Position numbers and translations under genes: made by a program | Shown: positions 2,466 through 46,791 of the stretch, piece after piece | How the letters are laid out: every line of letters begins with the position of its first letter | Position numbering within the stretch: position 1 is the stretch's first letter | Origin: Candidatus Levyibacteriota bacterium | Lineage (GTDB): Bacteria; Patescibacteriota; Microgenomatia; Levybacterales; UBA12049 | Assembly: GCA_038254115.1 (NCBI GenBank) | Contig: JBBSGK010000006.1 | Coordinates: 1-54,353, forward strand | Reading direction: 5' to 3' | Length of the DNA: 54,353 nt | The notes under the pieces: model-generated | What the model saw: only the letters and a program-made list of their open reading frames with translations | Database searches by the model: none | What the model was told of the DNA's origin: nothing

Positions 2466-2567
2466 ACATCAAGATTACAGCATTTTATTAATGGGACGCA
2501 AGCAGGAATCTAATAATAATGCTGCGAAAATTGTAAATTAACCAATAAAAATTTATAATGGTTAGAC

Positions 2568-3782
2568 ATGAAAAAGATCTTGACGCTTTTGGTAATACTG
2601 ATAACAATTTTTCTTGTCGGGAGTTGGTTTTATTTTGCCAACACTTATCAGATATCATCTCCCAGCAAATCCTCAGGATATTTCCTTGAGCATTTATTCC
2701 GTCCTCATGCAAAAATGAAGAAAGAGACGATCGGATTTTTGCCCTATTGGCGGATTGATGACAGCAAGTACACAAGACTTGACCTTGTAACTGAAGTGAA
2801 TTATTTTGGGCTTTTTGTGAATGGCGACGGTGAATTTGTAAAGGTTGTCAATGGTGAGACCAATCCCGGTCGGCGTGAGTGGGAAAGTGAAAAAATCAAA
2901 GATCTTATTACCAAGACACACATATTTGGATCAAAGTTCACGCTCTCAATTATCTGTCAAGATAACGATGATATCGAATCAATTCTAAGTGATGAAACAA
3001 TCCAGAAAAAACTTATCACAAACATAACAGATGAGGTCAAATCCCGTGACTTGGATGGGATAAATATCGACTTTGAATATCTTGGGGATGTTGATAAAAA
3101 ATTTCAGCCCAAATTCACTGTTTTCAGCAAAAATTTAAAAGAGGAATTGAGCAGGCAATCTCCAAATGCCAAACTTGAACTCAGTGTCATGCCCCGCTCC
3201 ATAAGAACTAAGGATATTTTTGATTTTACGAAGTTGGTTCCTTATTATAATAATTTCATCGGGATGTCATATGATTTCAGCGGGGGCTCCGCAACCAACG
3301 CTGGCCCCATCGCCCCTATGACGGGTTTTTCGGAGAATAAATATTTCTTCGACGTAACAACTATGTATGAGGACCTCGGCAAATACATACCAAAAGAAAA
3401 AACAATTATGGGTGTTCCCCACTACGGCTGGGATTGGACGGTTGAGGATGGAAAGAAAATTCTAAGCACCACCCTTCTACAAACAAATCCTGATAGTTAC
3501 GCAGCTGTCATGTCCTACGCGCGGGCAAAAGAAGAAAAGAATTTCAAGAAATCCCAGTGCTACTTTGATGATTATGCGATGGAACCCTGGTGCTGGTACA
3601 CGGACCCGAAAACCAAAATCGATCATCAGGTTTGGTTTGAAAACGCCAAATCAATTGGTATCAAATATGATTTTGCCAACAAAAAGGATTTGGGAGGAAT
3701 CGCAATCTGGGTCCTAGGATATGACAAAGATTACCCCGATTTGTGGAATTTGATGAAAGAAAAATTTTCTAAAAATCGATAG
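2568..3782 (+). CDS. Membrane-anchored glycoside hydrolase family 18 protein
   Basis: N-terminal TM segment; DGINIDFE (DxxDxDxE-like), MSYDF, GGIAIW. Confidence 0.88.
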   Translation: MKKILTLLVILITIFLVGSWFYFANTYQISSPSKSSGYFLEHLFRPHAKMKKETIGFLPYWRIDDSKYTRLDLVTEVNYFGLFVNGDGEFVKVVNGETNPGRREWESEKIKDLITKTHIFGSKFTLSIICQDNDDIESILSDETIQKKLITNITDEVKSRDLDGINIDFEYLGDVDKKFQPKFTVFSKNLKEELSRQSPNAKLELSVMPRSIRTKDIFDFTKLVPYYNNFIGMSYDFSGGSATNAGPIAPMTGFSENKYFFDVTTMYEDLGKYIPKEKTIMGVPHYGWDWTVEDGKKILSTTLLQTNPDSYAAVMSYARAKEEKNFKKSQCYFDDYAMEPWCWYTDPKTKIDHQVWFENAKSIGIKYDFANKKDLGGIAIWVLGYDKDYPDLWNLMKEKFSKNR

Positions 3783-6048
3783 GCTTTTCCAGGAGTTGGA
3801 CTTGAGGAGAAACTCTTGGAAAATTATGCTGTGAAACAACCTTCAGCGGTTTTTTTTCCAAAAGTTCATCCAGAAGATGAGCGACCCAGACATTATCATC
3901 TACCCTGTGCTGAGCAAGGGATGGAGACTGTCCTACCTTGATACTGTAGGCGCTGTCCGGCAACCCTCCAAATAGATCTTCATCAGTCCGTGCATCCCCT
4001 ATGGCCAAAATGAAATCATGCTTCTTTTTTTTAAGCCAATATTGAGCAGCTGCGCCTTTGTTGGCGCCTATATTTTTTATCTCAATAACTTTATTGTCAT
4101 GGATTGCCTCTGCATCGATGCTTGATAGAAAAGTTGTCAATTCATACATAATTTCTTTGGTGACAATGCCTGCTACTTCCTGTTCAACTTTTCTGTAATG
4201 CCACGCAACTGAATACTCCTTCTCTTCAATAAAAGACTTCGGGACACGGTTCACCCACTTTTGCAGAAGTGTTATGACAGAATCTTTCCAGGAATTGGAA
4301 AACTGACCAAACATCTCCCAATAGCGCCCCTCCCCGCTTTTCTTCCAAGTGCCATGCTCTGCAACAAGAGAAAGATGATCTATATCAAGCCATTTACTAA
4401 GAGTTTCTTTGTCACGTCCGCTGACAATAACAACTTCGTTTTTATAGTCTCCTGCCAGTGCCGATAACCGCTCCCTTACATGCTTTGACGGCTTTGCAAG
4501 CTCTGGTTTGTCTTGATATGGCACCAGAGTTCCATCATAGTCCAGGAAAATAAGCCTGTTTGAAGATTTTCTGTATGCGTCAATTATCTCATTCTTCACG
4601 TTTCGCGTCATAAAGGTAACTTTGCGCATTTTCTGTTCTTTTTTCACCTGAATTAGCGATTCATTTATGTCCGCTGCCCAATGATGTATATCATAATTTT
4701 CAAGATGACTTAGTATCCTCTTATTCCTCACAATCTGTTTACTATCAGAAATTGTGAGAGCTTTAAATATTGCATCCGCGATCTCATGAATATCAAAAGG
4801 GTTAATCAGAACCGCCTCACTCAATTCCTGGGCAGATCCTGCCATCTCGCTTAAAATTAAAACACCTGCTCCTCCCTCCTGACTGGCGATATATTCTTTC
4901 GCCACCAAATTCATCCCATCACGAAGAGGTGTAATAAGCGCAACATCACTTGCCTTATAGAAGGCAACCATTTCTTCGAATTTTAGTGACGTGAATTGAT
5001 AAATAATAGGCTGCCAGTTAACGCTTCCATAGGCGCCGTTTATTTTTCCAACCAGTTCATCAACCCTCCTTTTCATTGCTTGATATTGCTCAATATCGCT
5101 ACGGGACGGCTCAGAACTGACAATTAGGGAGACTTTGTTATGCCACTCGGGGTGCATAATTAAAAATTCTTCAAATCCCAATAAGCGGTTTTCTATACCT
5201 TTTGTATAATCAAGTCTATCAACCGAAAAAATTAGCTTTCTTTTCCCCAGAGTCTTTTTCAGACGGATTACTTCTTTTGCAACCCTCTGTGACTTACTCT
5301 CCTTTATATATTTTTCAACGTCAATTCCCATAGGAAATACGTCTGCTTTTACTATCCTGTCGTTCCAGGTAATAGTCCCCATGGTATTCTCAGCTTCAAG
5401 TATACGCTGGGCGCTTAACAGAAAATGCTGTCTATATTCATGGGTATGAAATCCTACCAGATCTGCCCCCAGCATTCCTTCCAGGAGGCCTACTCTCCAT
5501 TTTTGGGGAAGTATCCGGAATACATCAAGCGCAGGAAATGGAATATGAAGAAAAAAACTAATTGACAGTTTTGGATTGAATTCTCTCAGAAGCTTTGGCA
5601 GTAGCATAAGCTGATAATCTTGAATATGTATATTGTCACTCTCTCTCAAAAGCGGAGCAATTTGTTTGACAAAACTTTCATTTGCGCTGACATAGCTATC
5701 CCAATACTCAGGATCAGGCTGTACGAAATTGGTAAAATAATGAAACAACGGCCAGATTACTTTGTTACAAAATCCATTATAGTATCCCTCAGTTATTTTT
5801 GGGGTGAGAAAAACAGGAAATGCATTATGTTCCTTGAGGGTATTATTCCGCATCTTTTCCTGTTCCGATGGAGACACATAGATCCCCGGCCATCCAATCC
5901 ACAGATTTTCATGGGAAAGTTTTTTTACATGAGACCGCAAACCTGAGGCAACTCCACCATGATTAGGCGTGAATGAATATCCCTTCTCGTCCAGAGAAAC
6001 ACGAAGTGGGAATCTATTGGCAATATATACAGTCCGCATGGGGTTCAT
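3769..6048 (-). CDS. Bifunctional trehalose-6-phosphate synthase/phosphatase (GT20 + HAD)
   Basis: WIGWPG, FFLHIPFP, VDRLDYTKG, DGMNLVAKEY, followed by HAD FLDYDGTL and GDARTDED. Confidence 0.95.
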   Translation of the reverse strand: MNPMRTVYIANRFPLRVSLDEKGYSFTPNHGGVASGLRSHVKKLSHENLWIGWPGIYVSPSEQEKMRNNTLKEHNAFPVFLTPKITEGYYNGFCNKVIWPLFHYFTNFVQPDPEYWDSYVSANESFVKQIAPLLRESDNIHIQDYQLMLLPKLLREFNPKLSISFFLHIPFPALDVFRILPQKWRVGLLEGMLGADLVGFHTHEYRQHFLLSAQRILEAENTMGTITWNDRIVKADVFPMGIDVEKYIKESKSQRVAKEVIRLKKTLGKRKLIFSVDRLDYTKGIENRLLGFEEFLIMHPEWHNKVSLIVSSEPSRSDIEQYQAMKRRVDELVGKINGAYGSVNWQPIIYQFTSLKFEEMVAFYKASDVALITPLRDGMNLVAKEYIASQEGGAGVLILSEMAGSAQELSEAVLINPFDIHEIADAIFKALTISDSKQIVRNKRILSHLENYDIHHWAADINESLIQVKKEQKMRKVTFMTRNVKNEIIDAYRKSSNRLIFLDYDGTLVPYQDKPELAKPSKHVRERLSALAGDYKNEVVIVSGRDKETLSKWLDIDHLSLVAEHGTWKKSGEGRYWEMFGQFSNSWKDSVITLLQKWVNRVPKSFIEEKEYSVAWHYRKVEQEVAGIVTKEIMYELTTFLSSIDAEAIHDNKVIEIKNIGANKGAAAQYWLKKKKHDFILAIGDARTDEDLFGGLPDSAYSIKVGQSPSLAQHRVDDNVWVAHLLDELLEKKPLKVVSQHNFPRVSPQVQLLEKPIDF

Positions 6049-36698: not shown

Positions 36699-36892
36699 TC
36701 ACCTCTCAAGAATCAAACACTTATATCTATATCCATCCGCTTCTCTTTTCTCCTCAGAAATTACTTTTTTAAAATCCGGATAGTCTGGAAAAAATATATC
36801 AGCGTTGTAATCCCCTTCTACAATAGTTAGATAGAGTCTACCGACCAAACCTTTCTCAATTGCCTGTTTAAATATTTCTCCTCCTCCGAAAA
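36699..36892 (-). pseudogene. folA: Orphan 3' fragment of folA (direct repeat of 45308-45501)
   Basis: 36713-36892 aligns to 45322-45501 with 9 mismatches in 180 nt by manual count; no 5' half. Confidence 0.93.
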
Positions 36893-37070
36893 CTTCCTGA
36901 GTCAAAATCTTTGGTTTTCGGAGAATTAAATTTAAGAAAATCCGTCTCCTGTGTTATTTTGATTATTTACGTTACTCCTATTATTGCAAGCACTTCAAGT
37001 CCTCAAGCGTAATAAATTTTCTCCTTGAGACTTTATTATTGAAAACTGAGTAGATATTTTTGTCGTTCAT
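36890..37070 (-). pseudogene. Frameshifted mini twin-arginine protein (third paralog)
   Basis: MNDKNIYSVFNNKVSRRKFITL / frameshift / GLEVLAIIGVT*IIKITQETDFLKFNSPKTKDFDSGSF; aligns by eye to 37758-37943 and 44154-44345. Confidence 0.75.
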
Positions 37071-37151
37071 AGTATTTTAAATCCCTAATTTAATTGAAGG
37101 AGACTCATGTCCAAAACGCAATACCATACTACCGGATAGATCTTGGTGGTC

Positions 37152-37181
37152 TTGACTTTTAACGCAGAACAATAATATGCT
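37152..37181 (+). promoter_or_regulatory. Sigma70-type promoter, leaderless
   Basis: TTGACT-18-TATGCT; ATG 6 nt later. Confidence 0.55.
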
Positions 37182-37187
37182 TAAAAT

Positions 37188-37703
37188 ATGGAAAATAACG
37201 GACAAGCAACCGCTATCCCCTCCGCCTCATCCATACCCAGAAAAAGCCGGAAGAAAATAATTGCGGTAACAATTATTGTATTATTAATAATCTCGGGATT
37301 TTTGGTTTTCAAATATATCCAGTCGGCGCGCTTCGATCAGAAACGGCTAAGCGACATAGACACGCTTAAAGTCACTATTGAGAAATATTATAAAGATTAC
37401 AAAATCCTACCCGTCTCCATAGCTGCCTTCAGCCATATTTATACGACTACTGACCCCATAGATCCTGAGACAAAAAAAGACTATGTTTATAGAAAAATTT
37501 CACCAACTGAATATAAGCTTTGTACTAAATTTTCAACAAACTCCCAAGAAGCATTAAAGAAAGTTAAAAAGGATAAAGAAAAAGGACTAGGTTGTATTAC
37601 TTATAGGGTAGCTCTAAATATAGACACTGCCAATCTCAATCTTCTTTTAAACCCGGCAACACCGAGCAGAGCTGTATTCCGTATCAAGGAAGGTGGAAAA
37701 TAA
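37188..37703 (+). CDS. Pilin/pseudopilin-like membrane protein without a prepilin cleavage motif
   Basis: TM helix, then ARFDQKRLSDI..I.KYY....LP, DPIDPET..Y.Y and a Cys pair. Confidence 0.6.
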   Translation: MENNGQATAIPSASSIPRKSRKKIIAVTIIVLLIISGFLVFKYIQSARFDQKRLSDIDTLKVTIEKYYKDYKILPVSIAAFSHIYTTTDPIDPETKKDYVYRKISPTEYKLCTKFSTNSQEALKKVKKDKEKGLGCITYRVALNIDTANLNLLLNPATPSRAVFRIKEGGK

Positions 37704-37718
37704 TCCGTAAATCCAAGC

Positions 37719-37748
37719 TTGACAAGACTTGCCGATTCGCCCTAGACT
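37719..37748 (+). promoter_or_regulatory. Sigma70-type promoter for the mini-Tat/cargo operon
   Basis: TTGACA-18-TAGACT; ATG 9 nt later. Confidence 0.55.
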
Positions 37749-37757
37749 TTAAATAGA

Positions 37758-37943
37758 ATGATTTCTGATAGCTATACCATTCTTTTTTCACAACAGATGA
37801 CAAGGCGTGAATTCTTGATCCGCCTTGGACTTTTATTACTGCTATTAACAGGCGTTACAAATTTTATAAAAAATCTAGATAAGCTCAAATCATCAACAAA
37901 TGAAAAACTTCAGAAACATGATGACAGCCCATATGGGAGATAA
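37758..37943 (+). CDS. Mini twin-arginine signal protein (61 aa)
   Basis: MTRREFL, hydrophobic helix, short tail ending SPYGR. Confidence 0.85.
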   Translation: MISDSYTILFSQQMTRREFLIRLGLLLLLLTGVTNFIKNLDKLKSSTNEKLQKHDDSPYGR

Positions 37944-37958
37944 TTTAGCTTTAAACTT

Positions 37959-38387
37959 ATGATACGATTACCAAAACCGGGACAAGATGTAGGTCAATGG
38001 GGCAATTTATTGGTAGATTATTTATCAGCTGGCCATAATCCTGACGGAACAGATAAAAATGCCGATGCCCCGCGAAGCGCTGCTGTTGTCAAAGTCGCAT
38101 CCTCCGGCCCAGCTCAGTCGCTTGATATGCTATCAGGCGAGGTATTTGAAATCACCCTTACTGCCAACTGCAATTTATCTCTTGTCAATGTTCCGCAGGT
38201 CACAAGCTTTGGCCTTATTCTAAGGCAGGATGGATCGGGAAACCGCAATGTTACTTGGTCCTTTCCCGTTGCGTGGCCCGGCAGTTCTGCTCCAGCAATT
38301 CCCGAATCTGCCAATGCTTCAGCGCAATTTACTTTTCTGACAACAAGCAAAGGCAATATATGGTATCCGGGAATCATCCGGATTTAA
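37959..38387 (+). CDS. RLPxPGxDxGxWG-tagged beta-domain protein
   Basis: Paralog of the N-terminal ~140 aa of 38406-39761; LRQDGSGNRNVTW..WPG motif reminiscent of phage tail-fibre-associated domains. Confidence 0.8.
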   Translation: MIRLPKPGQDVGQWGNLLVDYLSAGHNPDGTDKNADAPRSAAVVKVASSGPAQSLDMLSGEVFEITLTANCNLSLVNVPQVTSFGLILRQDGSGNRNVTWSFPVAWPGSSAPAIPESANASAQFTFLTTSKGNIWYPGIIRI

Positions 38388-38405
38388 TCGGTTTAATATT
38401 TAACT

Positions 38406-39761
38406 ATGGCAAGACTACCGCAACCGGGAGGAGATACTGGAAACTGGGGAGAAATTTTAAACGACTATTTATCAGTCGCGCATAATCCTGACGGTTCACA
38501 CAAAAGCGGGAATGGGACAACTGTTGTTAACGTCGCATCCTCCGGCACCGCTCAGGTTCTTGACCTCTCAGCAGGGGATATTTTTGAAATAACTCTCACT
38601 GCCAATTGCAGCATTTCCCTTCTTCATCCCCCCACAGTCGGATCATTTGACGTTATTCTCCATCAGGACGGAGTAGGAGGACGGAATGTTACCTGGTCGT
38701 TCCCTGCGTCCTGGCCTGGCAATTCCGCTCCTAACCTGGCTACCGGAGTACGGCTGAGCGCTCAATTAACTTTTATAACCACTAATGGCGGCGCATCCTG
38801 GCTTCCTGTTGTTGTCAGAGATAACTTAGGTTCTGTAGGTACCATACCCGGTGCTCCAGTCATCGGGATAGCATCCCCTATTCCCAATGGAGCATTTGCA
38901 AGGTGGAGTCCCCCTTCAAGCGCGGGCGGCAGCCCGATTACAGGATATGTGGTAACGCCTACCAAAAACGGGACAGATCAAACACCAATTCAAGTGGGCA
39001 ATACCACAAGTGCGACAGTCGGAGGCTATACTACCAATGATTCTCTGACATTTAAAGTAGCCGCAATCAACCAAACGGGTACCGGACCCCAATCCTCAGT
39101 ATCTAACCCTGTAACAGTTAACTTCAGCCCCTTGGTGGTGGCCAACTGCTTCTATGCGCTTGATGCTTCCGCGCTCTCAGGCTACAGCGATGGTGACCTG
39201 ATATCGGCCGGCACAGATCTCTCGGGAGCGGGAAATACGACGACAGCCACAGGAGCAGCCCGACCGACTTTCAAAACCAATCAACAGAACGGCCTGCCTG
39301 CTATCCGCTTCAGCAATGTTACGACCAGGCTCAAAGCAACCCTCCCTTCTTTCAGACACCTGCCGGTTACATGGTTTGCTGTTATGAAGATAACCCCCAA
39401 TGGCGGAGACCGCATTCTTGATGGAAATACTCCATTTGAAGTTGGTCTGCGTCAGGGAGGAACACCCAATTTAAACATGATAGTTTATAGCAATAGCGGT
39501 TTTGCGGGACCGCCTGTTGACGCAAATCCAACAGCTACCCATCTATATGAGATGTACTTTGATGGATCAAATTCATCCATTGTCGTAGATGGCGTTGTTA
39601 AAGCAACAGGGTCGGTAATGGGTGATGCCAATCAGCAGGGAATTTCCATAGGAGAGTCGCCCTTTGACTTGTTTGAACTTTATGAATTTCAGTCACACGT
39701 CAGCACGTCTGATGCGGCCCAAATCCGTGCGTACCTGAAGTCCAAGTGGAGGACTCCTTGA
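38406..39761 (+). CDS. RLP-tagged protein with fibronectin type III and lectin/LamG-like domains
   Basis: PGAP...WSPP..GGSPITGYVV...FKVAAINQTGTG (FN3); C-terminal beta-sandwich ending YLKSKW; no signal peptide. Confidence 0.8.
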   Translation: MARLPQPGGDTGNWGEILNDYLSVAHNPDGSHKSGNGTTVVNVASSGTAQVLDLSAGDIFEITLTANCSISLLHPPTVGSFDVILHQDGVGGRNVTWSFPASWPGNSAPNLATGVRLSAQLTFITTNGGASWLPVVVRDNLGSVGTIPGAPVIGIASPIPNGAFARWSPPSSAGGSPITGYVVTPTKNGTDQTPIQVGNTTSATVGGYTTNDSLTFKVAAINQTGTGPQSSVSNPVTVNFSPLVVANCFYALDASALSGYSDGDLISAGTDLSGAGNTTTATGAARPTFKTNQQNGLPAIRFSNVTTRLKATLPSFRHLPVTWFAVMKITPNGGDRILDGNTPFEVGLRQGGTPNLNMIVYSNSGFAGPPVDANPTATHLYEMYFDGSNSSIVVDGVVKATGSVMGDANQQGISIGESPFDLFELYEFQSHVSTSDAAQIRAYLKSKWRTP

Positions 39762-42526
39762 TGGCTGCCGGCAAACCTTCTTTCACTATCACAGCCCGCG
39801 TAGTCAGTATTGACGGAGCGCCACCTACCCTTGGACATAGTTTCAAATTTTGGATATCGTACTTTGGGTACATAGACCCCAGCGCCGCACAGACTCCCGT
39901 ACAATTTGTGCTGGGCGGGAATGAAACTAATCCGATTGTGGTTAATCCGTCAACTATCGCTACTATTGATGCCCAATATTCGGGCAGCCTCGATAATTCT
40001 TTTACTAACCTTTGGCAATCCCTTATGTGCGGTTTGATATGCAGGCCTACCCAGGATTGGCAAGATACATTGGAAATTGCCGGGACTATCCATGTCGATG
40101 AAACCAACGAAAATCTGCCGTATACAGCTCGGTTATTCAAGTCTCTGCAAATATATGGTCCTACCAACGCGACGTTTATGGGACTTATGTGTTTTAGGTT
40201 GTTAGCTAACGGACAATTTCCGACATCCGCAACTGATCCCAACGGTATTCCTCACGTCTGGCCCCAAGCCCGATTCTTGCAGCGCTATATGGATCGTATA
40301 AACCAAGTAAATCCTAATCCCCCACCCCGTCCACGGCGTATTCAGATCTTCCAAAACGGTAATCCTGGTGATAACGACCGCAACTCGTGGAAAATATATT
40401 ACGACATACTCCGCCACCTGGGCACAACAACCACTCAAGCCGCTAACTTGCCTTGGGCGCCCGCCGAAATATCGCGGGCTTCGGATATCCACAAATTCTC
40501 CATTGGTCTTTATAATCCGCCTGGCTACATGTTTCCTTTTTCGCCAGGCAATCCTGGCGGCTCGTCACCCCAGGTTCCCGATGCTGCCGGAATAGCCGCT
40601 TGGGCGCAGTCTCAGGTTGATAAATTTGTAGCGGCCGGCTACACCAATCTTAGCCAGCTAACTCATATTAAAATTGCCGATGAGCCCAGCGAATATCAAA
40701 ATGATACTTTACGGGCGGTTAACGAAACCTGGACTGCCGGCGGATTTACCTCTAATAAAATGCGTGATGAGGCCACCCGTCAGACCTTTCTGACCAAGTT
40801 TCGCGATTACCTGGCCGCCCAGGGACTTACTCCGGCCCAAGTGGGATACGGGTCATTTGCAGCTGTACCCGGACCGGTTGGCAGAGGCAAAGAAAAAGGT
40901 ACACTTGTGGAACGCACCCTCTATTACTGGTCTATGAGATGGTTCTCGTATTTGGCGGCCAGATTGTACGCCGATGCCGCCGATGCTCTCAGACTAAAAA
41001 TTCCCGACATCCAGCCTACCCTAAGTCTCAATAGCTACAGCGGCATGATGTGGAAAGGCCTGGCTTTTGATCCTGCCAGCCATATTACATCACCCGACGA
41101 CGGCCAGATGGGCCACGACTGGCACGAACTTGGGCGGCTGGGCGGATTGATTGGGGTTGACGATTATATCTATGAATTCGTGATCTCCAACAATGCACTG
41201 CGGACATTTTCAAGCGTGCGCGATTACCCGAGTGGCAAAATGGCTGTCAACGAAGTAACAGTGGCAAAAGTCGGCACTGTAAAGGGCGCATTGCTCAAAA
41301 AAACATTGGTCAACGTTGGCCGTGGCGGCAGCATAATACCGATGTACCACTTTGGACCGGCCAATGTTTTTAAAGATGGTGTCGGTGCCGAAGACCTGAT
41401 TAGTGGTCCGTACGCCGTGGCAGATTATCATCGGTTATCCAAATGGCTTTATGAAACAGAAGACGACTTGCTAGCCGGTACGCCACCTTCTCCCCAAGTG
41501 GCGGTGGTGGCGCCCCGATCCACCCAAATGTTTAATAATTCAGTTCAAGTCAATGACTCCACTCAAGGCAATTGGTGGACTGGTACTATGGATTATTTTT
41601 GTGAAGCTTTGTCGCTGGTAACCGCCCTCACGCATGCTAATATCGAAAGTGATTGGATTGAAGAAGATAACTTAGGCAATGCCGCCCGGCTGGCCACCTA
41701 TAAGGTTATATACCTGACCGCGCCCTGTATTCCCGCCGAATATCAACCTACTTTGTCGGCCTGGGTTTCAGCTGGGGGTACGCTGGTAACTTTTCCGGGA
41801 GCTGGCGCTTATGACCGCTACAACAGCCCCACGACAGGCATAACGGCTATTGGAGGCTTAACCGAATCGGCGCATACCCGTCAGCCCCAAGGCAACTTAG
41901 CTACCACACCAATATCATTTCCAATTAGGGGCAACCAAGGTGGTTATGGAACAGCCTATCCAACTCCTGAGACTTGGCGAACAACCGTAGGGGCAAATGG
42001 AGGTGCCGTAGAGGCAACATTTGTAGATAACGGTAATCCGGCTGTTGTCACAAAAACTGTCGGATCCGGAAGGCGCGTGCATTTTGCCTATTTTATGGCT
42101 CAAACATACTTTCAAGGCGGTATTGGCGCGGATTCACCACAACGCCCTCCCACAAACCGCTGGAGCTTAGCTCTGCGCAAATACTTAACCCATCCCTTAA
42201 CGCTGGCAGGAGTTGTCCCTCCGGTCACTATCGACCAACCGCTGGTTGAAGGGCTGTTATTAAAATCCAGGACCTCCACGGTCGTAACCTTGCTAAACTG
42301 GCGTGCCGAGCCCGTGACTATTTCCGGCACCATCCGCGGCGACTTTGCCGGCACACGCCTTGAGGGACGAAATGGTGATATACCCTGCTCTTTCTCAGGA
42401 GGAACTGTAACCTTTGGCCCAATGGAGCTTGATGACTGTGATATTTTGGTTGTCAAACATGATGCCAGCACGCCAAAAACAGTCCGTGACTCACATGTAT
42501 TGAAAATCTTAAGAGGAGCTATTTAG
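39761..42526 (+). CDS. Large glycoside hydrolase-like protein with GH42-type trimerisation domain
   Basis: IADEP putative acid/base; LATYKVIYL...WVSAGGTLV; start ATG overlaps the upstream stop (TGATG). Confidence 0.65.
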   Translation: MAAGKPSFTITARVVSIDGAPPTLGHSFKFWISYFGYIDPSAAQTPVQFVLGGNETNPIVVNPSTIATIDAQYSGSLDNSFTNLWQSLMCGLICRPTQDWQDTLEIAGTIHVDETNENLPYTARLFKSLQIYGPTNATFMGLMCFRLLANGQFPTSATDPNGIPHVWPQARFLQRYMDRINQVNPNPPPRPRRIQIFQNGNPGDNDRNSWKIYYDILRHLGTTTTQAANLPWAPAEISRASDIHKFSIGLYNPPGYMFPFSPGNPGGSSPQVPDAAGIAAWAQSQVDKFVAAGYTNLSQLTHIKIADEPSEYQNDTLRAVNETWTAGGFTSNKMRDEATRQTFLTKFRDYLAAQGLTPAQVGYGSFAAVPGPVGRGKEKGTLVERTLYYWSMRWFSYLAARLYADAADALRLKIPDIQPTLSLNSYSGMMWKGLAFDPASHITSPDDGQMGHDWHELGRLGGLIGVDDYIYEFVISNNALRTFSSVRDYPSGKMAVNEVTVAKVGTVKGALLKKTLVNVGRGGSIIPMYHFGPANVFKDGVGAEDLISGPYAVADYHRLSKWLYETEDDLLAGTPPSPQVAVVAPRSTQMFNNSVQVNDSTQGNWWTGTMDYFCEALSLVTALTHANIESDWIEEDNLGNAARLATYKVIYLTAPCIPAEYQPTLSAWVSAGGTLVTFPGAGAYDRYNSPTTGITAIGGLTESAHTRQPQGNLATTPISFPIRGNQGGYGTAYPTPETWRTTVGANGGAVEATFVDNGNPAVVTKTVGSGRRVHFAYFMAQTYFQGGIGADSPQRPPTNRWSLALRKYLTHPLTLAGVVPPVTIDQPLVEGLLLKSRTSTVVTLLNWRAEPVTISGTIRGDFAGTRLEGRNGDIPCSFSGGTVTFGPMELDDCDILVVKHDASTPKTVRDSHVLKILRGAI

Positions 42527-42546
42527 AAATTTCTTCAAATATAAAA

Positions 42547-44148
42547 CTACTGCCCATGGATGTTTGTTAATTCTCTGAGGAACAAATTGTAGTCAAATTG
42601 ATTAACCGATCCGTCATCTGTTATATCAGCTGAGAGTTTCTTTGCCGGATCTGAACAATTCTGAGCGGGCAAAGTATCGCTATAGCAGTCAGCCAATGTG
42701 TTGTAATCCAATATATCTATTTTGTTATCATTATTCATATCCCCTGAGGTAAGAGTCATTTGCGGCAATATATTTATTTGTCCTTGGGTGAATGATTGGA
42801 TACCCGGACCAAGAGCCTTAAGAAACTGATCGGCCTTAACTTTGACAGTATAAGCTCCTGTTGGGACTTCAGTACCCAAATCAACATCTCCTTTAAAGTT
42901 TCCTACTGAAGAATCAAAATTCACAGTTCCCTCTTTCGTCAAAACCAATTTATTCTGGCTATCAAGTACTTCAATCGCAACGCTTCTTTGCGATCTGCGT
43001 GGAGCTGCTGTTCCTCCGCCATTTGGATTGGCGCTGTCCCCGCCTTTTCCCAGACCATGAAGAAGAAGGTTCAGGGAAATAGAAGTTGAGACAACCGGCG
43101 CGCCGGCTAGTTGCACCTTCTGCCATTTGGATGCATTTTGAAACTCGGTTGTGATAGACGGATACATTACGGATTTACTACCAGATGCATCGCTGTCATC
43201 CAGGGCAAATCCCAATCCAAGCGTTGTTCCCGCAACAGGAGCGCTGCTTAATCCCATTGTGATCCATGGAATACGCACTTCGACGGTGTAATTGCTTGCG
43301 CTTTTTAATACAGCTGACTGCCAATTTCCATTCCAGGAAATATCGGGCTCGTTATTTGCTGATCCTCTTGCATCAAATTGAGTGTTCAATGTATTTACAA
43401 TTCCTTGATAGTCTCCCGGAGACATGCCATTGCCGCCATTATTTTGTGTATCAACAAACCATTCAACTGCGTCATCTTCCCAGACATTTCCATCCCTTGT
43501 TGTTATCTGAGACTGCACTTGGTCATCTTGCACAATATACGCTAGATACAAATTAGCGTCATCCCACATTGCTTTAACGACTATGTTATTGTTGGTAGGA
43601 CTGCCAAAGGCTATATTTTTGGCTGATGAAAACTCCTGGGGATTTCCATCAATAGTCGGCGCAAGTTGCGCTTTAACTATTGAAAAACCGGCTGGTGTAA
43701 CAGGAGACGTAGGTGTTGGTGTATGAATGACTACCGTAGGACTCGGGACAGGTGTAGTCGTAGGCGTAGGAATAGATGTCGGTGTAAGAGTGACAATTGC
43801 TGGAGTAGGAGTAACAACCGGAGTAGTCAGAGCAGTTGCAGGAGCAACTGTAGGCGCAGAAGTTGAGGCGGGCAATGCCGTAGGGGGTGGCACTTGCGAA
43901 ACAATAAGAGTCGGGGTGATAACTGCTGCTGCGACACTTCCATATATTCCTTCTCCAAAATTTCCAAAGCCGTATGAGCCTGTTGTAGTTGCCGCGTGCT
44001 GGCGAAATATTTGAGGGAACTGAAGGACAATAATAGTTATTGGAATAATTACCAATATTAGAAAAGTAGATAATCCTCGTCTGGATTTTGGGGCTAAAGA
44101 ACGGAGTTTGTAAAAGGCAGCGCTAAAAAAATATTTTAAACTGTTCAT
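42547..44148 (-). CDS. Surface protein: TM anchor, YG motif, P/T linker, CBM9-like sugar-binding domain, dockerin-like C-terminus
   Basis: APTIDG..WDDANLYLA..DAVEWFVD..YTVEVRIPW; GDMNNDNKIDILDY and DITDDGSVNQFDY. Confidence 0.82.
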   Translation of the reverse strand: MNSLKYFFSAAFYKLRSLAPKSRRGLSTFLILVIIPITIIVLQFPQIFRQHAATTTGSYGFGNFGEGIYGSVAAAVITPTLIVSQVPPPTALPASTSAPTVAPATALTTPVVTPTPAIVTLTPTSIPTPTTTPVPSPTVVIHTPTPTSPVTPAGFSIVKAQLAPTIDGNPQEFSSAKNIAFGSPTNNNIVVKAMWDDANLYLAYIVQDDQVQSQITTRDGNVWEDDAVEWFVDTQNNGGNGMSPGDYQGIVNTLNTQFDARGSANNEPDISWNGNWQSAVLKSASNYTVEVRIPWITMGLSSAPVAGTTLGLGFALDDSDASGSKSVMYPSITTEFQNASKWQKVQLAGAPVVSTSISLNLLLHGLGKGGDSANPNGGGTAAPRRSQRSVAIEVLDSQNKLVLTKEGTVNFDSSVGNFKGDVDLGTEVPTGAYTVKVKADQFLKALGPGIQSFTQGQINILPQMTLTSGDMNNDNKIDILDYNTLADCYSDTLPAQNCSDPAKKLSADITDDGSVNQFDYNLFLRELTNIHGQ

Positions 44149-44153
44149 AATTT

Positions 44154-44345
44154 CTACTTGCCATATGACCCGGATCCAAAACCTTTCGTCTCATTGGATC
44201 GCATGCGTAAAGTGCTGGAATCAGAAAGTTTTCTTAGTGTTTCCGAAATTCCTGTAATTGTCAAAAGGCCTAGGCCGAGATAAAGCAAAAATTGCTTTCT
44301 ACTCATACTTTTTGCTAATAGCTGATTTAGGTTATTTTTGCGCAT
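44154..44345 (-). CDS. Mini twin-arginine-like signal protein (63 aa)
   Basis: MSRKQFL, hydrophobic helix, tail GFGSGSYGK; start overlaps the tatC 3' end. Confidence 0.85.
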   Translation of the reverse strand: MRKNNLNQLLAKSMSRKQFLLYLGLGLLTITGISETLRKLSDSSTLRMRSNETKGFGSGSYGK

Positions 44346-45057
44346 AGGCAGGTTTTGGGTTAAGAGCAATAATGCCTATGGTTATCGTGTATAACAAAAT
44401 TATCGGCATGGCCATGATTGTCTGGTTTATGGGATCACCTGTCGGTGTAAGAATAGCCGCCACAATAAAGCTGATGAGTACAACATAGCGCAAATATTTA
44501 ATAAGCTTTTTTGGTTTAAGAGGTGTAATCTTATGAATCAGAAGCATTATTATAGGAAGCTGGAAAAGTAATCCAAATCCCCCCATATACGCGAGCACAA
44601 AAGACATATAATCTTTTGTGGATATCAAAGCTTTCACCTGATCTGTGCTAAATTCGGAGAGCAATCTAAGCGCTGACGGGAGACTGAGATAGTAAGCTGT
44701 TGCCAGCCCCATCAAGAGAAGTACCCAAGAACCCACGAGAAATTTCTCCAGCATACCGTTGAAATTTTGAGGAATAGCCGGTTCAATAAATTTAAGGACT
44801 TGATAAACAACAATTGGAAAAGAAACAAGTGTGCCAAAAAGGAAGGATATTTTGAAAACCAGATCAAACCCTCCCGTTGGAGATGTGTAATACAATGATT
44901 CATGAAGAGGAAGTGTTAGGAATTTTATAATCGAGTCACGCATGAAATAACCGAGTCCAGCTCCCACACCGATGCTTAAGGCTGAATATACCAAACGGGT
45001 TTTAAGCTCTGCAAGATGCTCTGCAAATTTTTTTTCTGAATGGGCAACTGTATTCAT
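44332..45057 (-). CDS. tatC: Twin-arginine translocase subunit TatC
   Basis: EHLAELKTRL, FGLLFQLP, AAILTPTGDP; six TM segments. Confidence 0.95.
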   Translation of the reverse strand: MNTVAHSEKKFAEHLAELKTRLVYSALSIGVGAGLGYFMRDSIIKFLTLPLHESLYYTSPTGGFDLVFKISFLFGTLVSFPIVVYQVLKFIEPAIPQNFNGMLEKFLVGSWVLLLMGLATAYYLSLPSALRLLSEFSTDQVKALISTKDYMSFVLAYMGGFGLLFQLPIIMLLIHKITPLKPKKLIKYLRYVVLISFIVAAILTPTGDPINQTIMAMPIILLYTITIGIIALNPKPAYAQK

Positions 45058-45063
45058 AGATCA

Positions 45064-45249
45064 TCAGGATTTGGAAGATTTTTTACTTTTTCCTTTTCCC
45101 TTTTCATCTATCTCTCCTGTGAAACCTTTTCGGATTTCCCGTATTCCCTCACCTATACTTCGTGAAAGTTCAGGAAGCTTCTTGCCGCCAAACAACAAGA
45201 GAATTATAACCAATATTACGATAAGTTCTTCAAAGCCTAAGCCGAACAT
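45064..45249 (-). CDS. tatA: Twin-arginine translocase subunit TatA
   Basis: MFGLGFEELIVILVIILLLFGGKKLPEL; GGAGG SD upstream of ATG 45249. Confidence 0.96.
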   Translation of the reverse strand: MFGLGFEELIVILVIILLLFGGKKLPELSRSIGEGIREIRKGFTGEIDEKGKGKSKKSSKS

Positions 45250-45307
45250 ATAAAAACCTCCTTCCATTAAAAGTATATATAGTTAAGGGGTTAGAATGCA
45301 AGTATGA

Positions 45308-45802
45308 TTATCTTGTAAGGGTCAAAAACTTATATTTATATCCATCCGCTTCTCTTTTCTCCTCAGAAATTACTTTTTTAAAATCCGGATAGTCTGGAAA
45401 AAATATATCAGCGTCGTAATCCCCTTCTGCGATAGTCAGATAGAGTCTATCGACCAAACCTTTCTCAATTGCCTGTTTGAATATTTCCCCTCCTCCGAAA
45501 ATAAATATCTCTTCGGCTCCGTGACTTTTTTTTGCTATTTCAATCCCATCTTCTATCGAGGTGACAATTGCATCCGGATGATAAGGAAGCTTCTCGAGTT
45601 TTTGTGAATCACGTGTAATAACAATATGGGTTCTGTTTGGAAGAAGTCTCCCTAAAGATTCAAATGTTTTACGCCCCATTACAAGAGGATGCCCCGTTGT
45701 AATTTCCCGTAAACGCTTCATGTCTTCAGGAATTTTAAATAGAAGATCATTATTCTTCCCCAATCCATTTTTCTCATCAACCGCCGCGATAATACTTATC
45801 AT
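45308..45802 (-). CDS. folA: Dihydrofolate reductase
   Basis: IIAAV, MGRKTFESL, LPNR, FGGGEI. Confidence 0.97.
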   Translation of the reverse strand: MISIIAAVDEKNGLGKNNDLLFKIPEDMKRLREITTGHPLVMGRKTFESLGRLLPNRTHIVITRDSQKLEKLPYHPDAIVTSIEDGIEIAKKSHGAEEIFIFGGGEIFKQAIEKGLVDRLYLTIAEGDYDADIFFPDYPDFKKVISEEKREADGYKYKFLTLTR

Positions 45803-46791
45803 TTCTTTTTATTTCCTCCTCGCTCAGAAACTGCCGAACCGTCATAAAATCCCCCTGCAACAGTTAATTCTGCCTTGATGGGAGGATGGGGATCATAATT
45901 TTCAAGAGTCACCCTATCAGGCCTGAAATCATCTAAACTTTTAAACTTCCCAAGCTTGATAGTCGGAAATAGGCGGGGTTTTCTTTTAAGTTGCTCATTT
46001 ACCTGATCAATATGATTTTCATAAATATGAACATCCCCAAAAGTGTGGACAAATTCTCCCGGTTTGTACCCCAAAATTTTGGCAAGAATTATAGTCAGAA
46101 GCGCATAGCTCGCTATATTAAATGGTACACCCAGGAAAACATCGGCGCTTCTCTGATAAAGCTGCAGATTTAATTTGTTATTTTTGATATTGACCTGATA
46201 CATATTGTGGCAAATCGGAAAATAAGAAGTATCCTCTTTCTGAGCCATTGTATAAAGATATTCAGGATTCCAGGAATTTACAATAGTATTATGAGCATAA
46301 GGATCTTCTTTCAGTTCTTTTATTACCCAAGCAAGCTGGTCAATTGTTCTGCCTGATTTGGTAGGCCAGCGTCTCCAAAGTTCCCCATAGATTCTGGGCA
46401 GATTCCCCCATTCAGTTGCAAATCTCGCATCACTCGCAATCTTTTCAATAAAATCATTCTTTTCTAAGGGGCTCTTTAATCTTAAATCTTTAATCTTATT
46501 TCTGTATATCTTAAAAGGATAATCATCCCAGATATGCACATTATTATCGACCAGATATTTGATGTTGGAGTCCCCTGACATGAACCAGTAAAGCTCATGC
46601 AGAACACCTTTCCAGTAAACTTTTTTTGTGGTGAGGAGAGGAAATCCATCTGACAGATCAAATCTTATCTGTCTTCCAAAAACACCGTATGATTTGACAC
46701 CGGTCCCCCGGTCGTGATTCTCATCCCCATTTTTCAAGATGTCTTTGAGAAGGTCTAAATATTGCTGTTCGGGGTGTTTTTTCTTACTCAT
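45799..46791 (-). CDS. thyA: Thymidylate synthase
   Basis: DRGTG, FPLLTTK, PICH, YQRSADVFLGVPFN, DVHIY. Confidence 0.97.
   Translation of the reverse strand: MSKKKHPEQQYLDLLKDILKNGDENHDRGTGVKSYGVFGRQIRFDLSDGFPLLTTKKVYWKGVLHELYWFMSGDSNIKYLVDNNVHIWDDYPFKIYRNKIKDLRLKSPLEKNDFIEKIASDARFATEWGNLPRIYGELWRRWPTKSGRTIDQLAWVIKELKEDPYAHNTIVNSWNPEYLYTMAQKEDTSYFPICHNMYQVNIKNNKLNLQLYQRSADVFLGVPFNIASYALLTIILAKILGYKPGEFVHTFGDVHIYENHIDQVNEQLKRKPRLFPTIKLGKFKSLDDFRPDRVTLENYDPHPPIKAELTVAGGFYDGSAVSERGGNKKK

What the first reader, a model, noticed from the sequence alone, without database searches (positions are those of the whole stretch)
36890..45249. Candidate split-signal (adaptor-mediated) Tat export system: TatAC + free-standing twin-arginine mini-proteins + signal-less tagged cargo
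Seen: tatA-tatC is followed by an overlapping 63-aa ORF that consists of a Tat-like motif (SRKQFL), an h-region and a ~30-aa tail ending GFGSGSYGK. A second 61-aa paralog (TRREFL...SPYGR) heads the convergent operon. Neither has a folded passenger domain or a clear AxA cleavage site. The three downstream proteins carry extracellular-type domains (FN3, lectin-like, GH) but no Sec/Tat signal; two begin with RLPxPGxDxGxWGxxLxxYLSxxHNPDG. Established: Tat exports folded complexes and can carry signal-less partners (hitchhiking, e.g. hydrogenase subunits). Inference: the mini-proteins act as detachable signal peptides whose YG tail binds the RLP/WG tag, making export and membrane tethering modular. 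I know of no description of this arrangement.
Basis: partly seen in the sequence, partly recalled or inferred. Interest (0 to 1): 0.92.

Follow-up and report, generated by a model that had tools for sequence, protein, structure and literature searches.

The report
Tat operon with docking mini-proteins
An inserted gene island in a tiny-genome bacterium couples a Tat protein-export machine to 60-residue proteins that look like a bare export signal plus a short docking peptide, and to signal-less phage-tail-fibre-like proteins that probably ride out of the cell on them.

Summary
tatA-tatC is followed by an overlapping 63-aa ORF. A 61-aa paralog precedes two proteins that start with the RLP..WG..HNPDG tag.

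The pattern is conserved well beyond this window. The mini-protein family has 1065 clusters, and the best 150 are all 49-94 aa, so none is fused. In 401 genomes of the phylum, the tag occurs in 16, all of which carry TatC. None of the 376 TatC-less genomes has it. A sister genome shows the empty site (thyA-folA-glyA), so the Tat cassette is an insertion.

New findings:
- The tag is also the N-terminus of phage tail fibres and tailspikes.
- In phages, the protein encoded just upstream ends in the same YGxGxYG motif as the mini-protein tail (10 of 35 assessable loci).
- Homologs of the island's 926-aa protein carry their own twin-arginine signal. The window's copy lacks it.

Best reading (about 0.5): a Tat-type signal-anchor is fused to a phage-derived docking peptide, which carries and tethers signal-less fibre-like cargo (hitchhiking).

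Binding and Tat dependence are not shown. Most family members have RK rather than RR, and Pfam's TAT_signal model does not recognise them. NCBIfam NF038009 already names a related family as Tat-associated.

The parts
45064..45267 (-). tatA. The likely start is MFGLG at 45249.
   Evidence: Pfam TatA_B_E 7.3e-15. TIGR01411 scores 58.5 bits, above the cut-off of 53.9.
44332..45057 (-). tatC, the only tatC in the genome.
   Evidence: Pfam TatC 4.7e-54. TIGR00945 scores 165 bits, above the cut-off of 132.7. The whole-genome search finds 1 match.
44154..44345 (-). Mini-1, 63 aa. It has a Tat-like n-region (MSRKQFL), a hydrophobic stretch, a basic c-region and a tail ending GFGSGSYGK. It overlaps the end of tatC.
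   Evidence: NF038009 scores 50.3 bits, below the cut-off of 100. The family profile scores 85.8 bits.
42547..44148 (-). 533-aa surface protein. It has an N-terminal membrane or signal segment, then GSYGFGNFGEGIYG (a YG motif), a P/T-rich linker, CBM9, an Ig-like domain and a dockerin.
   Evidence: CBM9_1 2e-22 and Dockerin_1 6.1e-6. The YG motif was found. G241 has the same layout, tatA-tatC-mini-[signal+YG+LPxTG protein].
39761..42526 (+). 921/926-aa protein without a signal. Its ATG overlaps the stop of the 451-aa gene, and the longer GTG ORF starts at 39746.
   Evidence: Glyco_hydro_42M at 25.8 bits, exactly the cut-off. Homologs P0249 and P0250 (64-65% identical) have about 60 extra N-terminal residues with TRRRVL/TRRQVL and an Ala-rich hydrophobic stretch. 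The window's copy starts at the mature domain.
38406..39761 (+). Tagged protein of 451 aa: RLP tag, tail-fibre-type beta-sandwich, FN3 and a weak ConA-like lectin domain.
   Evidence: fn3 1.4e-7. phrog_9017 tail fiber 1.9e-7. Laminin_G_3 at E 0.0034.
37959..38387 (+). Tagged protein of 142 aa: RLP tag plus a tail-fibre C-terminal beta-sandwich, the minimal form.
   Evidence: AF2 pLDDT 77.4, with a helix at residues 13-25 and a sandwich at 43-141. BFVD gives 192 hits at E<=1e-3 to phage tail-fibre domains. phrog_9017 9.7e-11.
37758..37943 (+). Mini-2, 61 aa, with MTRREFL and a tail ending SPYGR. It ends 15 nt before the 142-aa gene.
   Evidence: NF038009 scores 23.3 bits. The family profile scores 67.4 bits.
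37188..37703 (+). 171-aa single-pass membrane protein upstream of mini-2.
   Evidence: It is weakly similar (E 7e-7 over 52 aa) to a tatC-adjacent protein in G369.
36889..37005 (-). Degenerate remnant of a third mini-protein gene (C-terminal half, with stop codons inside).
   Evidence: Profile hits at 3.0e-4 and 9.6e-4.
36699..36905 (-). Duplicated 3' fragment of folA. The left copy of the 185-nt direct repeat (36708-36892) marks the island boundary.
   Evidence: The repeat 36708-36892 / 45317-45501 is 94% identical. DHFR_1 2.4e-8. The empty site in G003 is thyA-folA-glyA.
45308..45802 (-). Intact folA. It holds the right copy of the repeat (45317-45501), which is the other island boundary.

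Best explanation
The region is an 8.4-kb inserted cassette, about 36893-45316, lying between folA and glyA. It brings together three components.

1. A minimal TatAC translocase.
2. Two copies of a 60-70-aa protein. It is built like an uncleaved Tat signal-anchor, with a conserved LLxKxM[S/T/D]R[K/R]xFL n-region, a Gly/Thr-rich hydrophobic stretch and a basic residue after it. A short flexible linker follows, ending in a (G)[F/Y]GxGxYG peptide.
3. Signal-less proteins resembling phage tail fibres or tailspikes, whose first 33 residues form the RLP..WG..LN..HNxDG module.

Proposed mechanism (inferred):
- The YG peptide and the RLP module are a docking pair inherited from phages. There, a tail or baseplate protein that ends in YGxGxYG is encoded next to the fibre that starts with the RLP module.
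- In these bacteria the docking peptide has been joined to a Tat-type signal.
- The mini-protein binds the N-terminus of a folded cargo in the cytoplasm and targets the complex to TatC.
- The cargo crosses by hitchhiking, and the uncleaved signal stays in the membrane as a tether.
- Neighbouring Sec-exported, wall-anchored proteins that display the same YG motif at their mature N-terminus may serve as further docking sites.

Shown:
- the gene content and the insertion
- the conservation and free-standing nature of the mini-protein
- strict co-occurrence of tag, mini-protein and TatC
- YG/RLP adjacency in phages
- loss of a twin-arginine signal from the 926-aa protein relative to its homologs

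Inferred: the binding, the Tat dependence, the topology and the tethering.
For: Locus conservation. In 5 of 5 relatives that have the mini-protein, its gene follows the tat genes and precedes a tagged gene. It comes straight after tatC in four of them and after tatC-tatA in G004. The gap or overlap to the tagged gene is 0-15 nt in most, about 150 nt in G004.

Co-occurrence:
- Among 41 relatives, TatC is in 6, the mini-protein in 5 and the tag in 5, and these are the same 5 genomes.
- In the phylum sample of 401 genomes, the tag is in 16 and TatC in 25. All 16 tag genomes have TatC, and 0 of 376 TatC-less genomes have the tag.
- The mini-protein is found in 10 of 401 with the small profile. With the 76-row profile, 4 more of the 6 remaining tag genomes have it, giving 14 of 16.

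Gain as a unit. Sister genome G003 (a single contig with no Tat) has thyA-folA-glyA contiguous. The window's island is flanked by a 185-nt repeat at 94% identity.

The mini-protein stands alone. The family has 1065 clusters at E<=1e-3, and the best 150 are all 49-94 aa. A YGxxxYG-like tail is present in 130 of 150.

Mini-proteins track cargo, not only the translocase. G423 has 4 copies, 3 of them 115-361 nt upstream of tagged genes that lie away from tatC.

Tat-like N-half. Profile positions 11-44 pick out the canonical SRREFLKK signal of a 343-aa polysaccharide deacetylase in G043. G075's mini-protein has TRRDFLK.

No obvious alternative Tat substrate. A crude scan of the own genome gives 77 candidates under a loose regex. 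Only the two mini-proteins combine [S/T]R[R/K]xFL with an n-region and a moderate hydrophobic stretch.

Cargo is of extracellular type. Behind the tag sit Pectate_lyase_3, SGNH/GDSL, collagen, DUF5907, PTR, HylP and fn3 domains. One natural fusion of the tag to an N-terminal membrane helix exists (L095).

Phage evidence for the docking pair:
- 36 IMG/VR loci carry the tag, inside real structural modules with portal, major head, tape measure and tail or baseplate proteins.
- 10 of 35 assessable tags have a YG motif at the C-end of the frame that stops 3-109 nt upstream.
- 6 of 29 have the motif at the N-terminus of the next gene.
- Only 14 of 4670 frames carry a C-terminal YG motif at all (Fisher 1.3e-19; the loci are not all independent).

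The 926-aa protein. Two of its 5 homologs, plus one that is N-terminally truncated, carry a twin-arginine N-terminal extension that the window's copy lacks.
Against: - No direct evidence of binding or export exists.
- The twin arginine is RK in 92 of the 150 best family members, RR in 43 and KK in 1; 14 did not fit the regex. Mini-1 has RK.
- Pfam TAT_signal matches 1 of 76 members, at E 0.1.
- The tag also occurs in phages and in a few non-Patescibacteria genomes with no mini-protein or tatC in the locus held (0 of 36 viral loci; L044, L065, L079 and L085). It is therefore not in itself a Tat tag.
- Most tagged genes are not next to a mini-protein: 12 of 127 tags in 120 genome loci have one within 400 nt upstream.
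- Some tagged proteins are very large (2720 aa in G423) and are probably trimeric. That is far beyond known Tat cargo sizes (recalled).
- The 926-aa protein has no tag, so its route is unexplained.
- 9 of 25 TatC genomes lack the tag. Two tag genomes gave no mini-protein hit, both only 75-78% complete.
- Related genomes are not independent samples.
Confidence: 0.5

Rival explanations
1. Anchor only. The mini-protein is a small membrane anchor, inserted by Tat, Sec or YidC, whose external YG tail is a docking site. The tagged proteins leave the cell by another route. For example, TatC might recognise them directly, or they might be released in some other way and then captured at the surface.
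For: The YG motif is also displayed by Sec-type, LPxTG-anchored neighbours, which can only act outside the cell. In phages the pair is purely structural. Most tagged genes have no mini-protein of their own (12 of 127).
Against: No other export signal is visible on the tagged proteins. The strict link to TatC, with 0 of 376 TatC-less genomes carrying the tag, still requires Tat to handle something. In the own genome the mini-proteins are the only Tat-like sequences found.
Confidence: 0.2
2. Translocase subunit. The mini-protein is a third component of the TatAC machine, acting as a TatB-like or receptor-modulating subunit. The RLP module is itself a non-canonical N-terminal Tat targeting signal.
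For: The gene comes straight after tatC, or after tatC-tatA, in nearly all loci seen. NCBIfam calls the related family 'twin-arginine translocation system-associated protein', under the model name TatB_1. The tag is always at residue 1.
Against: Neither mini-protein matches TatA_B_E at E<=0.01, and that family is not among the 25 commonest families printed for the 76 members scanned at E<=1. Its layout, with a long basic n-region before the helix, is that of a signal and not of TatA or TatB. Extra copies sit next to cargo genes far from tatAC (G423; mini-2 here). The same tag is used by phages that have no Tat genes in the loci held.
Confidence: 0.1
3. Phage remnant. The cassette is a degraded prophage or another phage-derived mobile element. 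The tagged proteins are tail fibres that are never exported. Their co-occurrence with tatAC reflects co-transfer on one element, not a shared function.
For: The island is flanked by direct repeats, and 38-42 kb has a GC of 0.49-0.51 against 0.40 elsewhere. The tagged proteins match tail-fibre PHROGs and folds. The tag is common in viral contigs.
Against: No capsid, portal, terminase or tail genes lie in the island or in the 13 tat loci inspected. Of the five island proteins scanned against PHROGs, only the two tagged ones hit, and only tail-fibre families. None of the 36 viral loci has tatC or a mini-protein. Tagged genes are scattered around complete genomes, with 9 hits in G423. The three parts co-occur across 9 taxonomic families.
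Confidence: 0.08

Closest known systems
Tat 'hitchhiker' export (HybO/HybC hydrogenase 2, DmsA/DmsB, PaoABC)
   Same: One partner carries the Tat signal. Signal-less partners encoded in the same operon are co-exported as a folded complex. PaoABC: abstract seen in the search listing for PMC4273604. The other examples are recalled.
   Different: In the known cases the signal-bearing partner is a folded enzyme subunit dedicated to one complex. Here it would be about 60 residues, with no passenger domain. It would recognise a portable 33-residue tag shared by many unrelated cargo proteins.
NCBIfam NF038009, 'twin-arginine translocation system-associated protein'
   Same: It is a 70-position model of small proteins. 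All 76 of 76 family members tested match it at E<=1e-3, the best at 1.1e-19.
   Different: Mini-1 scores 50.3 bits and mini-2 23.3 bits, against a cut-off of 100. They are relatives, not members as NCBI defines the family. No paper was found that describes the family.
Uncleaved Tat signal-anchors and Tat-inserted anchored proteins (Rieske proteins; tail-anchored Tat substrates)
   Same: A Tat-type N-terminal signal that is not cleaved and remains as a membrane anchor. Rieske is recalled. PMC10924467: abstract start seen in the search listing.
   Different: Those anchors are part of the enzyme they anchor. Here the anchor is a separate gene product.
Phage tail-fibre or tailspike N-terminal attachment modules, and their docking sites on tail or baseplate proteins
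   Same: The RLP module heads proteins placed after tape-measure, tail or baseplate genes. The bodies of the window's tagged proteins match tail-fibre PHROGs and folds.
   Different: The tag is not covered by any Pfam or PHROG match obtained. No cultured-phage record matched residues 1-26. In the bacteria the docking peptide is attached to a membrane signal rather than to a virion protein.
Cohesin-dockerin type modular surface display (recalled)
   Same: A short portable module on many enzymes docks onto an anchored scaffold.
   Different: The sequences are unrelated. Here the docking is proposed to take place before export and to provide the export signal.

Membership tests
Tat (twin-arginine) signal peptide | The S/T-R-R-x-F-L-K motif. 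| tested here: inconclusive
   Mini-2 has TRREFL and mini-1 has SRKQFL. Of the 150 best family members, 92 have RK, 43 RR and 1 KK, and 14 did not fit the regex. The consensus itself is recalled.
Tat (twin-arginine) signal peptide | A match to the curated profile (Pfam PF10518 TAT_signal). | tested here: not met
   1 of 76 members matched, at E 0.1. Neither window copy matched.
Tat (twin-arginine) signal peptide | A moderately hydrophobic stretch after the motif, a basic c-region and an AxA cleavage site. | tested here: inconclusive
   The hydrophobic stretch and a following K/R are conserved. No conserved AxA is seen, which suggests an uncleaved anchor.
Tat (twin-arginine) signal peptide | Export depends on TatC. 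| not testable with these tools
   Only genomic linkage to tatC is available.
NCBIfam NF038009 (Tat system-associated protein) | A score above the curated cut-off of 100 bits. | tested here: not met
   The scores are 50.3 and 23.3 bits. No genome of the 41 relatives is over the cut-off.
TatA/TatB/TatE family | A match to Pfam PF02416. | tested here: not met
   Neither mini-protein matches at E<=0.01. TatA_B_E is not among the 25 commonest families printed for the 76 members at E<=1. The real tatA genes do match, at 45094-45240 and at C10:3923-4078.
Tat hitchhiker pair | A signal-bearing and a signal-less partner encoded together. | tested here: met
   The mini-protein gene lies 0-15 nt, or overlaps by 1 nt, ahead of the tagged gene in the window, G001, G008 and G011. 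12 further pairs were found in genome loci.
Tat hitchhiker pair | The partners form a complex before export. | not testable with these tools
   This needs biochemistry. Indirect support comes from the adjacency of the YG and RLP motifs in phages.
Phage tail fibre / tailspike proteins | Homology of the body of the protein to tail-fibre families. | tested here: met
   phrog_9017 scores 9.7e-11 for the 142-aa protein and 1.9e-7 for the 451-aa protein. BFVD gives 192 hits at E<=1e-3. tblastn finds 138 phage records, covering residues 27-140 only.
Phage tail fibre / tailspike proteins | Encoded within a virion structural module. | tested here: not met
   By ORF reading, the island holds no capsid, portal, terminase or tail genes. 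The three non-tagged island proteins scanned (926 aa, 533 aa, 171 aa) have no PHROG match at E<=1e-3. The viral loci, by contrast, do lie in such modules.

The most novel reading that the evidence does not exclude
A peptide-domain docking pair that phages use to hang fibres on their tails has been captured by Patescibacteria, mainly Saccharibacteria. The peptide half was fused to a Tat signal. The result is a free-standing signal peptide that acts in trans. This one small adaptor exports and tethers a whole, exchangeable set of signal-less adhesins and cell-wall depolymerases resembling tail fibres, which these episymbionts use on their hosts. The translocase, the adaptor and the cargo move between genomes as one cassette.
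Probability: 0.4. Interest if true: 0.9.

Novelty: new variant of a known kind. Interest (0 to 1): 0.8.

Why it matters
- **Protein targeting.** Every known targeting signal for Tat or Sec is part of the exported chain or of a folded subunit. A 60-residue adaptor that supplies the signal in trans to any protein carrying a 33-residue tag would be a new logic of protein targeting. It would also be a ready-made tool for exporting folded proteins.
- **Why Patescibacteria keep Tat.** It would explain why a minority of these bacteria, which have almost no redox enzymes, retain a Tat system.
- **Host attachment.** It points to proteins resembling phage receptor-binding proteins as surface organelles that episymbiotic bacteria may use to attach to or open their hosts.
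- **Phage biology.** The YG/RLP pairing is also a testable prediction about how a large class of phage fibres is attached to the tail.

Tried and rejected
**Calls that gave no usable answer**
- Complex prediction with the 142-aa tagged protein (alignment A4) and mini-1 (alignment A3) returned 'no answer': scores 0.00 and 0.00, controls not run, partner fold uncertain. This is neither for nor against binding.
- The look-up of sequencing runs listed no RNA holder. Only the probable source sample holds the stretch, and only as contigs.
- The search for homologous proteins with mini-1 found nothing, because a protein this short defeats the word index. The exhaustive search replaced it.
- Foldseek against the PDB gave no match at E<=1e-3.
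- phmmer against PDB sequences found nothing for the 926-aa protein and nothing meaningful for the C-terminal part of the 451-aa protein.
- NCBIfam gave no family for the 926-aa homologs, including no Tat-signal model at E<=1. Their twin-arginine extension is read by eye.
- The Atlas rows for the tag and the Fe_hyd_SSU row for the mini-protein score under 0.9 and are leads only.

**Readings rejected**
- Read-through or frameshift fusion of the mini-protein and the tagged gene. The two frames differ between genomes: in frame in the window and G001, out of frame in G008 and G011. In phages the gaps are 3-109 nt and the frames are mixed.
- Chance ORFs. The family has 1065 clusters with conserved motifs.
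- A tag confined to Tat-bearing organisms.

**Literature**
Seven searches found no description of the mini-protein family, of the tag, or of a signal acting in trans. For PMC9166423, passages were read; it reports only that TatA and TatC occur in some CPR classes. For PMC4273604 and PMC10924467, only the search listing with the abstract start was seen. Supplements were not consulted; the tables of PMC9166423 might list Tat genes per genome.

Full report
**1. What is in the window**

On the minus strand the order is thyA (45799-46791), folA (45308-45802), tatA (45064-45267), tatC (44332-45057), mini-1 and a 533-aa protein (42547-44148). Mini-1 is a 63-aa ORF at 44154-44345 that overlaps the end of tatC.

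Converging on the plus strand are a 171-aa membrane protein (37188-37703), mini-2 (61 aa, 37758-37943) and three further genes. These are a 142-aa protein (37959-38387), a 451-aa protein (38406-39761) and a 921/926-aa protein whose ATG overlaps the preceding stop (39761-42526).

- tatA and tatC pass the curated cut-offs of Pfam and NCBIfam.
- The 533-aa protein has CBM9 and dockerin domains.
- The 451-aa protein has an FN3 domain and a weak ConA-like lectin match.
- The 926-aa protein has only a Glyco_hydro_42M match, exactly at threshold.
- The 142-aa and 451-aa proteins begin with the same 33-residue module, M-x-RLPxPGxDxGxWGxxLxDYLSxxHNPDG.

**2. The region is an inserted cassette**

- A 185-nt direct repeat at 94% identity lies at 36708-36892 and 45317-45501. 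It is the 3' end of folA, present once inside the intact gene and once as a 68-codon fragment.
- A sister genome of the same genus, G003, is a single contig without tatC. There thyA, folA and glyA are contiguous.
- In G001 folA is followed by tatA-tatC-mini-tagged gene, as in the window. In G004 the tat cassette sits on a different contig from folA.
- GC is 0.49-0.51 across 38-42 kb, against about 0.40 elsewhere.
- A decayed third mini-protein gene lies at the left boundary, 36889-37005.

**3. The mini-protein is a real, large family and is always free-standing**

- A six-sequence profile found 1065 clusters at E<=1e-3 among 1.84 billion representatives, and 145 at E<=1e-10.
- The best 150 are 49-94 aa, and the match runs to or near the C-terminus.
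- Of these 150, 92 have RK, 43 RR and 1 KK before x-F-[LIMV]. A [YF]G..[YF]G tail is present in 130.
- All 76 of 76 members tested match NCBIfam NF038009 ('twin-arginine translocation system-associated protein'). The two window copies score 50.3 and 23.3 bits, well below its 100-bit cut-off, and the best of the 76 reaches only E 1.1e-19.
- Pfam's TAT_signal model matches only 1 of 76.
- The N-half of the family profile does pick out a textbook Tat signal (SRREFLKK) on a 343-aa polysaccharide deacetylase in another Patescibacteria genome.
- Atlas neighbours are unnamed clusters of 60-68 aa, mostly from Saccharimonadota.

**4. The three parts travel together**

| Sample | TatC | Mini-protein | Tag |
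|---|---|---|---|
| 41 relatives | 6 | 5 | 5 (the same 5 genomes) |
| 401 genomes of the phylum | 25 | 10 (small profile) | 16 |

- In the phylum sample, all 16 tag genomes have TatC. None of the 376 TatC-less genomes has the tag.
- With the 76-row profile, 4 of the 6 remaining tag genomes also have a mini-protein. One of them, G075, has it straight after tatC with a canonical TRRDFLK.
- The two tag genomes that gave no mini-protein hit are only 75-78% complete.
- Nine TatC genomes lack the tag, so Tat also has other uses in the phylum.
- Related genomes are not independent. Even so, the trio is spread over nine taxonomic families and is present or absent as a unit within the window's own genus.

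In the loci read, the mini-protein gene follows the tat genes. A tagged gene usually comes next, with a gap of 0-15 nt or a 1-nt overlap. Extra mini-protein copies sit ahead of tagged genes that lie far from tatAC, for example 3 of the 4 copies in G423.

In the own genome the tag regex hits only the two island genes. A crude scan for Tat-like N-termini singles out only the two mini-proteins. The 533-aa protein's SRRGLSTFL is borderline.

**5. What the tagged proteins are**

- The tag sits at residue 1 in 93 of 95 homologs, and the other two are mis-called starts.
- Behind it come Pectate_lyase_3, SGNH/GDSL hydrolase, collagen repeats, DUF5907, phage-tail repeats, HylP hyaluronidase and FN3.
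- The 142-aa protein folds with pLDDT 77.4 into a tag helix (residues 13-25) and a beta-sandwich.
- The sandwich matches 192 predicted phage proteins at E<=1e-3, many of them named tail fibre. It also matches PHROG tail-fibre families and tail-fibre genes in 138 cultured-phage records, always over residues 27-140 only.
- In 120 genome loci found with a degenerate DNA pattern, nearly all record titles are Saccharibacteria or other Patescibacteria.
- One locus, L095, has the tag fused behind an N-terminal membrane helix.

**6. The tag and the YG tail form a phage pair**

The same DNA pattern hit 36 IMG/VR contigs. None has a mini-protein or tatC in the stretch held.

The tagged genes there sit in true structural modules, with portal, major head, tape measure and tail or baseplate proteins.

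- In 10 of 35 assessable cases, the frame that stops 3-109 nt before the tagged gene ends in ..YGxGxYG(G..).
- In 6 of 29 cases, the next gene downstream begins with the motif.
- Only 14 of 4670 frames in these loci have a C-terminal YG motif at all, and 10 of those 14 are the frame directly upstream of a tagged gene.

The mini-protein tail is therefore the same peptide that phage tail proteins carry next to fibres with this N-terminus. It also shows that the tag is a docking module and not an export signal.

The motif appears again at the mature N-terminus of Sec-type surface proteins encoded beside tatAC or the mini-protein, often LPxTG-anchored. This holds in 6 of 13 tat loci and in G241. 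The window's CBM9-dockerin protein is one example.

**7. A cargo that has lost its own Tat signal**

The 926-aa protein has five homologs. Two of them (64-65% identical) start with about 60 extra residues containing TRRRVL or TRRQVL and an Ala-rich hydrophobic stretch. A third is truncated within that extension. The window's protein and two others begin exactly at the mature domain.

The family is therefore Tat-exported elsewhere, and is signal-less inside this cassette. It has no RLP tag, so how it would be carried is open. One possibility is the translationally coupled 451-aa protein.

**8. Reading**

The best-supported model has three steps:
1. A Tat-type, probably uncleaved signal-anchor is joined to a phage-derived docking peptide.
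2. This anchor binds the N-terminal module of folded, fibre-like or enzyme cargo.
3. It takes the cargo through TatAC as a hitchhiker and then tethers it at the membrane.

I put this at about 0.5. The rivals are anchor-only (0.2), translocase subunit (0.1) and phage remnant (0.08).

The weak points are the RK motif, the failure of the curated Tat-signal profile, the very large size of some cargo, and the absence of any binding or export data.

**9. Novelty**

Hitchhiking and uncleaved Tat anchors are known. A free-standing signal peptide that serves a portable tag is not described in the papers searched. NCBI curators have, however, named a related small family as Tat-associated.

Noticed in passing
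window 36699-36905 and 45308-45802; repeat 36708-36892 / 45317-45501: The 3' end of folA is duplicated (185 nt, 94% identical) at both ends of the Tat cassette. A sister genome has thyA-folA-glyA with nothing in between. The island contains no integrase.
   Followed up: partly
window 36889-37005 (-): A decayed third mini-protein gene (C-terminal half, with stop codons inside) sits directly next to the folA fragment. It suggests that an earlier cassette was replaced.
   Followed up: partly
own genome, contig C10:3914-4147 (+), outside the window: A second tatA paralog of 77 aa stands alone, far from the only tatC.
   Followed up: partly
window 38000-42000: GC is 0.49-0.51 here against about 0.40 in the rest of the window. 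The tagged genes and the 926-aa gene look recently acquired from a donor with higher GC.
   Followed up: no
L085 (Gordonia aichiensis record), 1619-3829 (-): An actinobacterial isolate genome encodes a 737-aa tagged protein. Its first 60 or so residues closely resemble those of Saccharibacteria tagged proteins. No mini-protein, tatC or YG motif lies in the 8 kb held. Possible explanations are a prophage fibre or an exchange between host and epibiont.
   Followed up: partly
L017 (G025), L199 (G043), L200 (G355): The TatC genomes without the tag have a different neighbourhood. tatA-tatC lies next to very long Ser/Pro-repeat proteins and small proteins that end in a GFNSQT..W motif. This may be another dedicated Tat cargo set.
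   Followed up: no
L078, L090, L092 (records titled Rhizobiaceae, Pseudomonadales, Gammaproteobacteria MAGs): L090 and L092 carry the tatC-mini-tagged-gene arrangement typical of Patescibacteria. L078 carries a mini-protein upstream of a tagged gene, with no tatC in the stretch held. All three are probably mis-binned contigs.
   Followed up: no
window 37188-37703 (+): The 171-aa single-pass membrane protein upstream of mini-2 is weakly similar (E 7e-7 over 52 aa) to a protein next to tatC in G369. It may be a further accessory of the cassette.
   Followed up: partly
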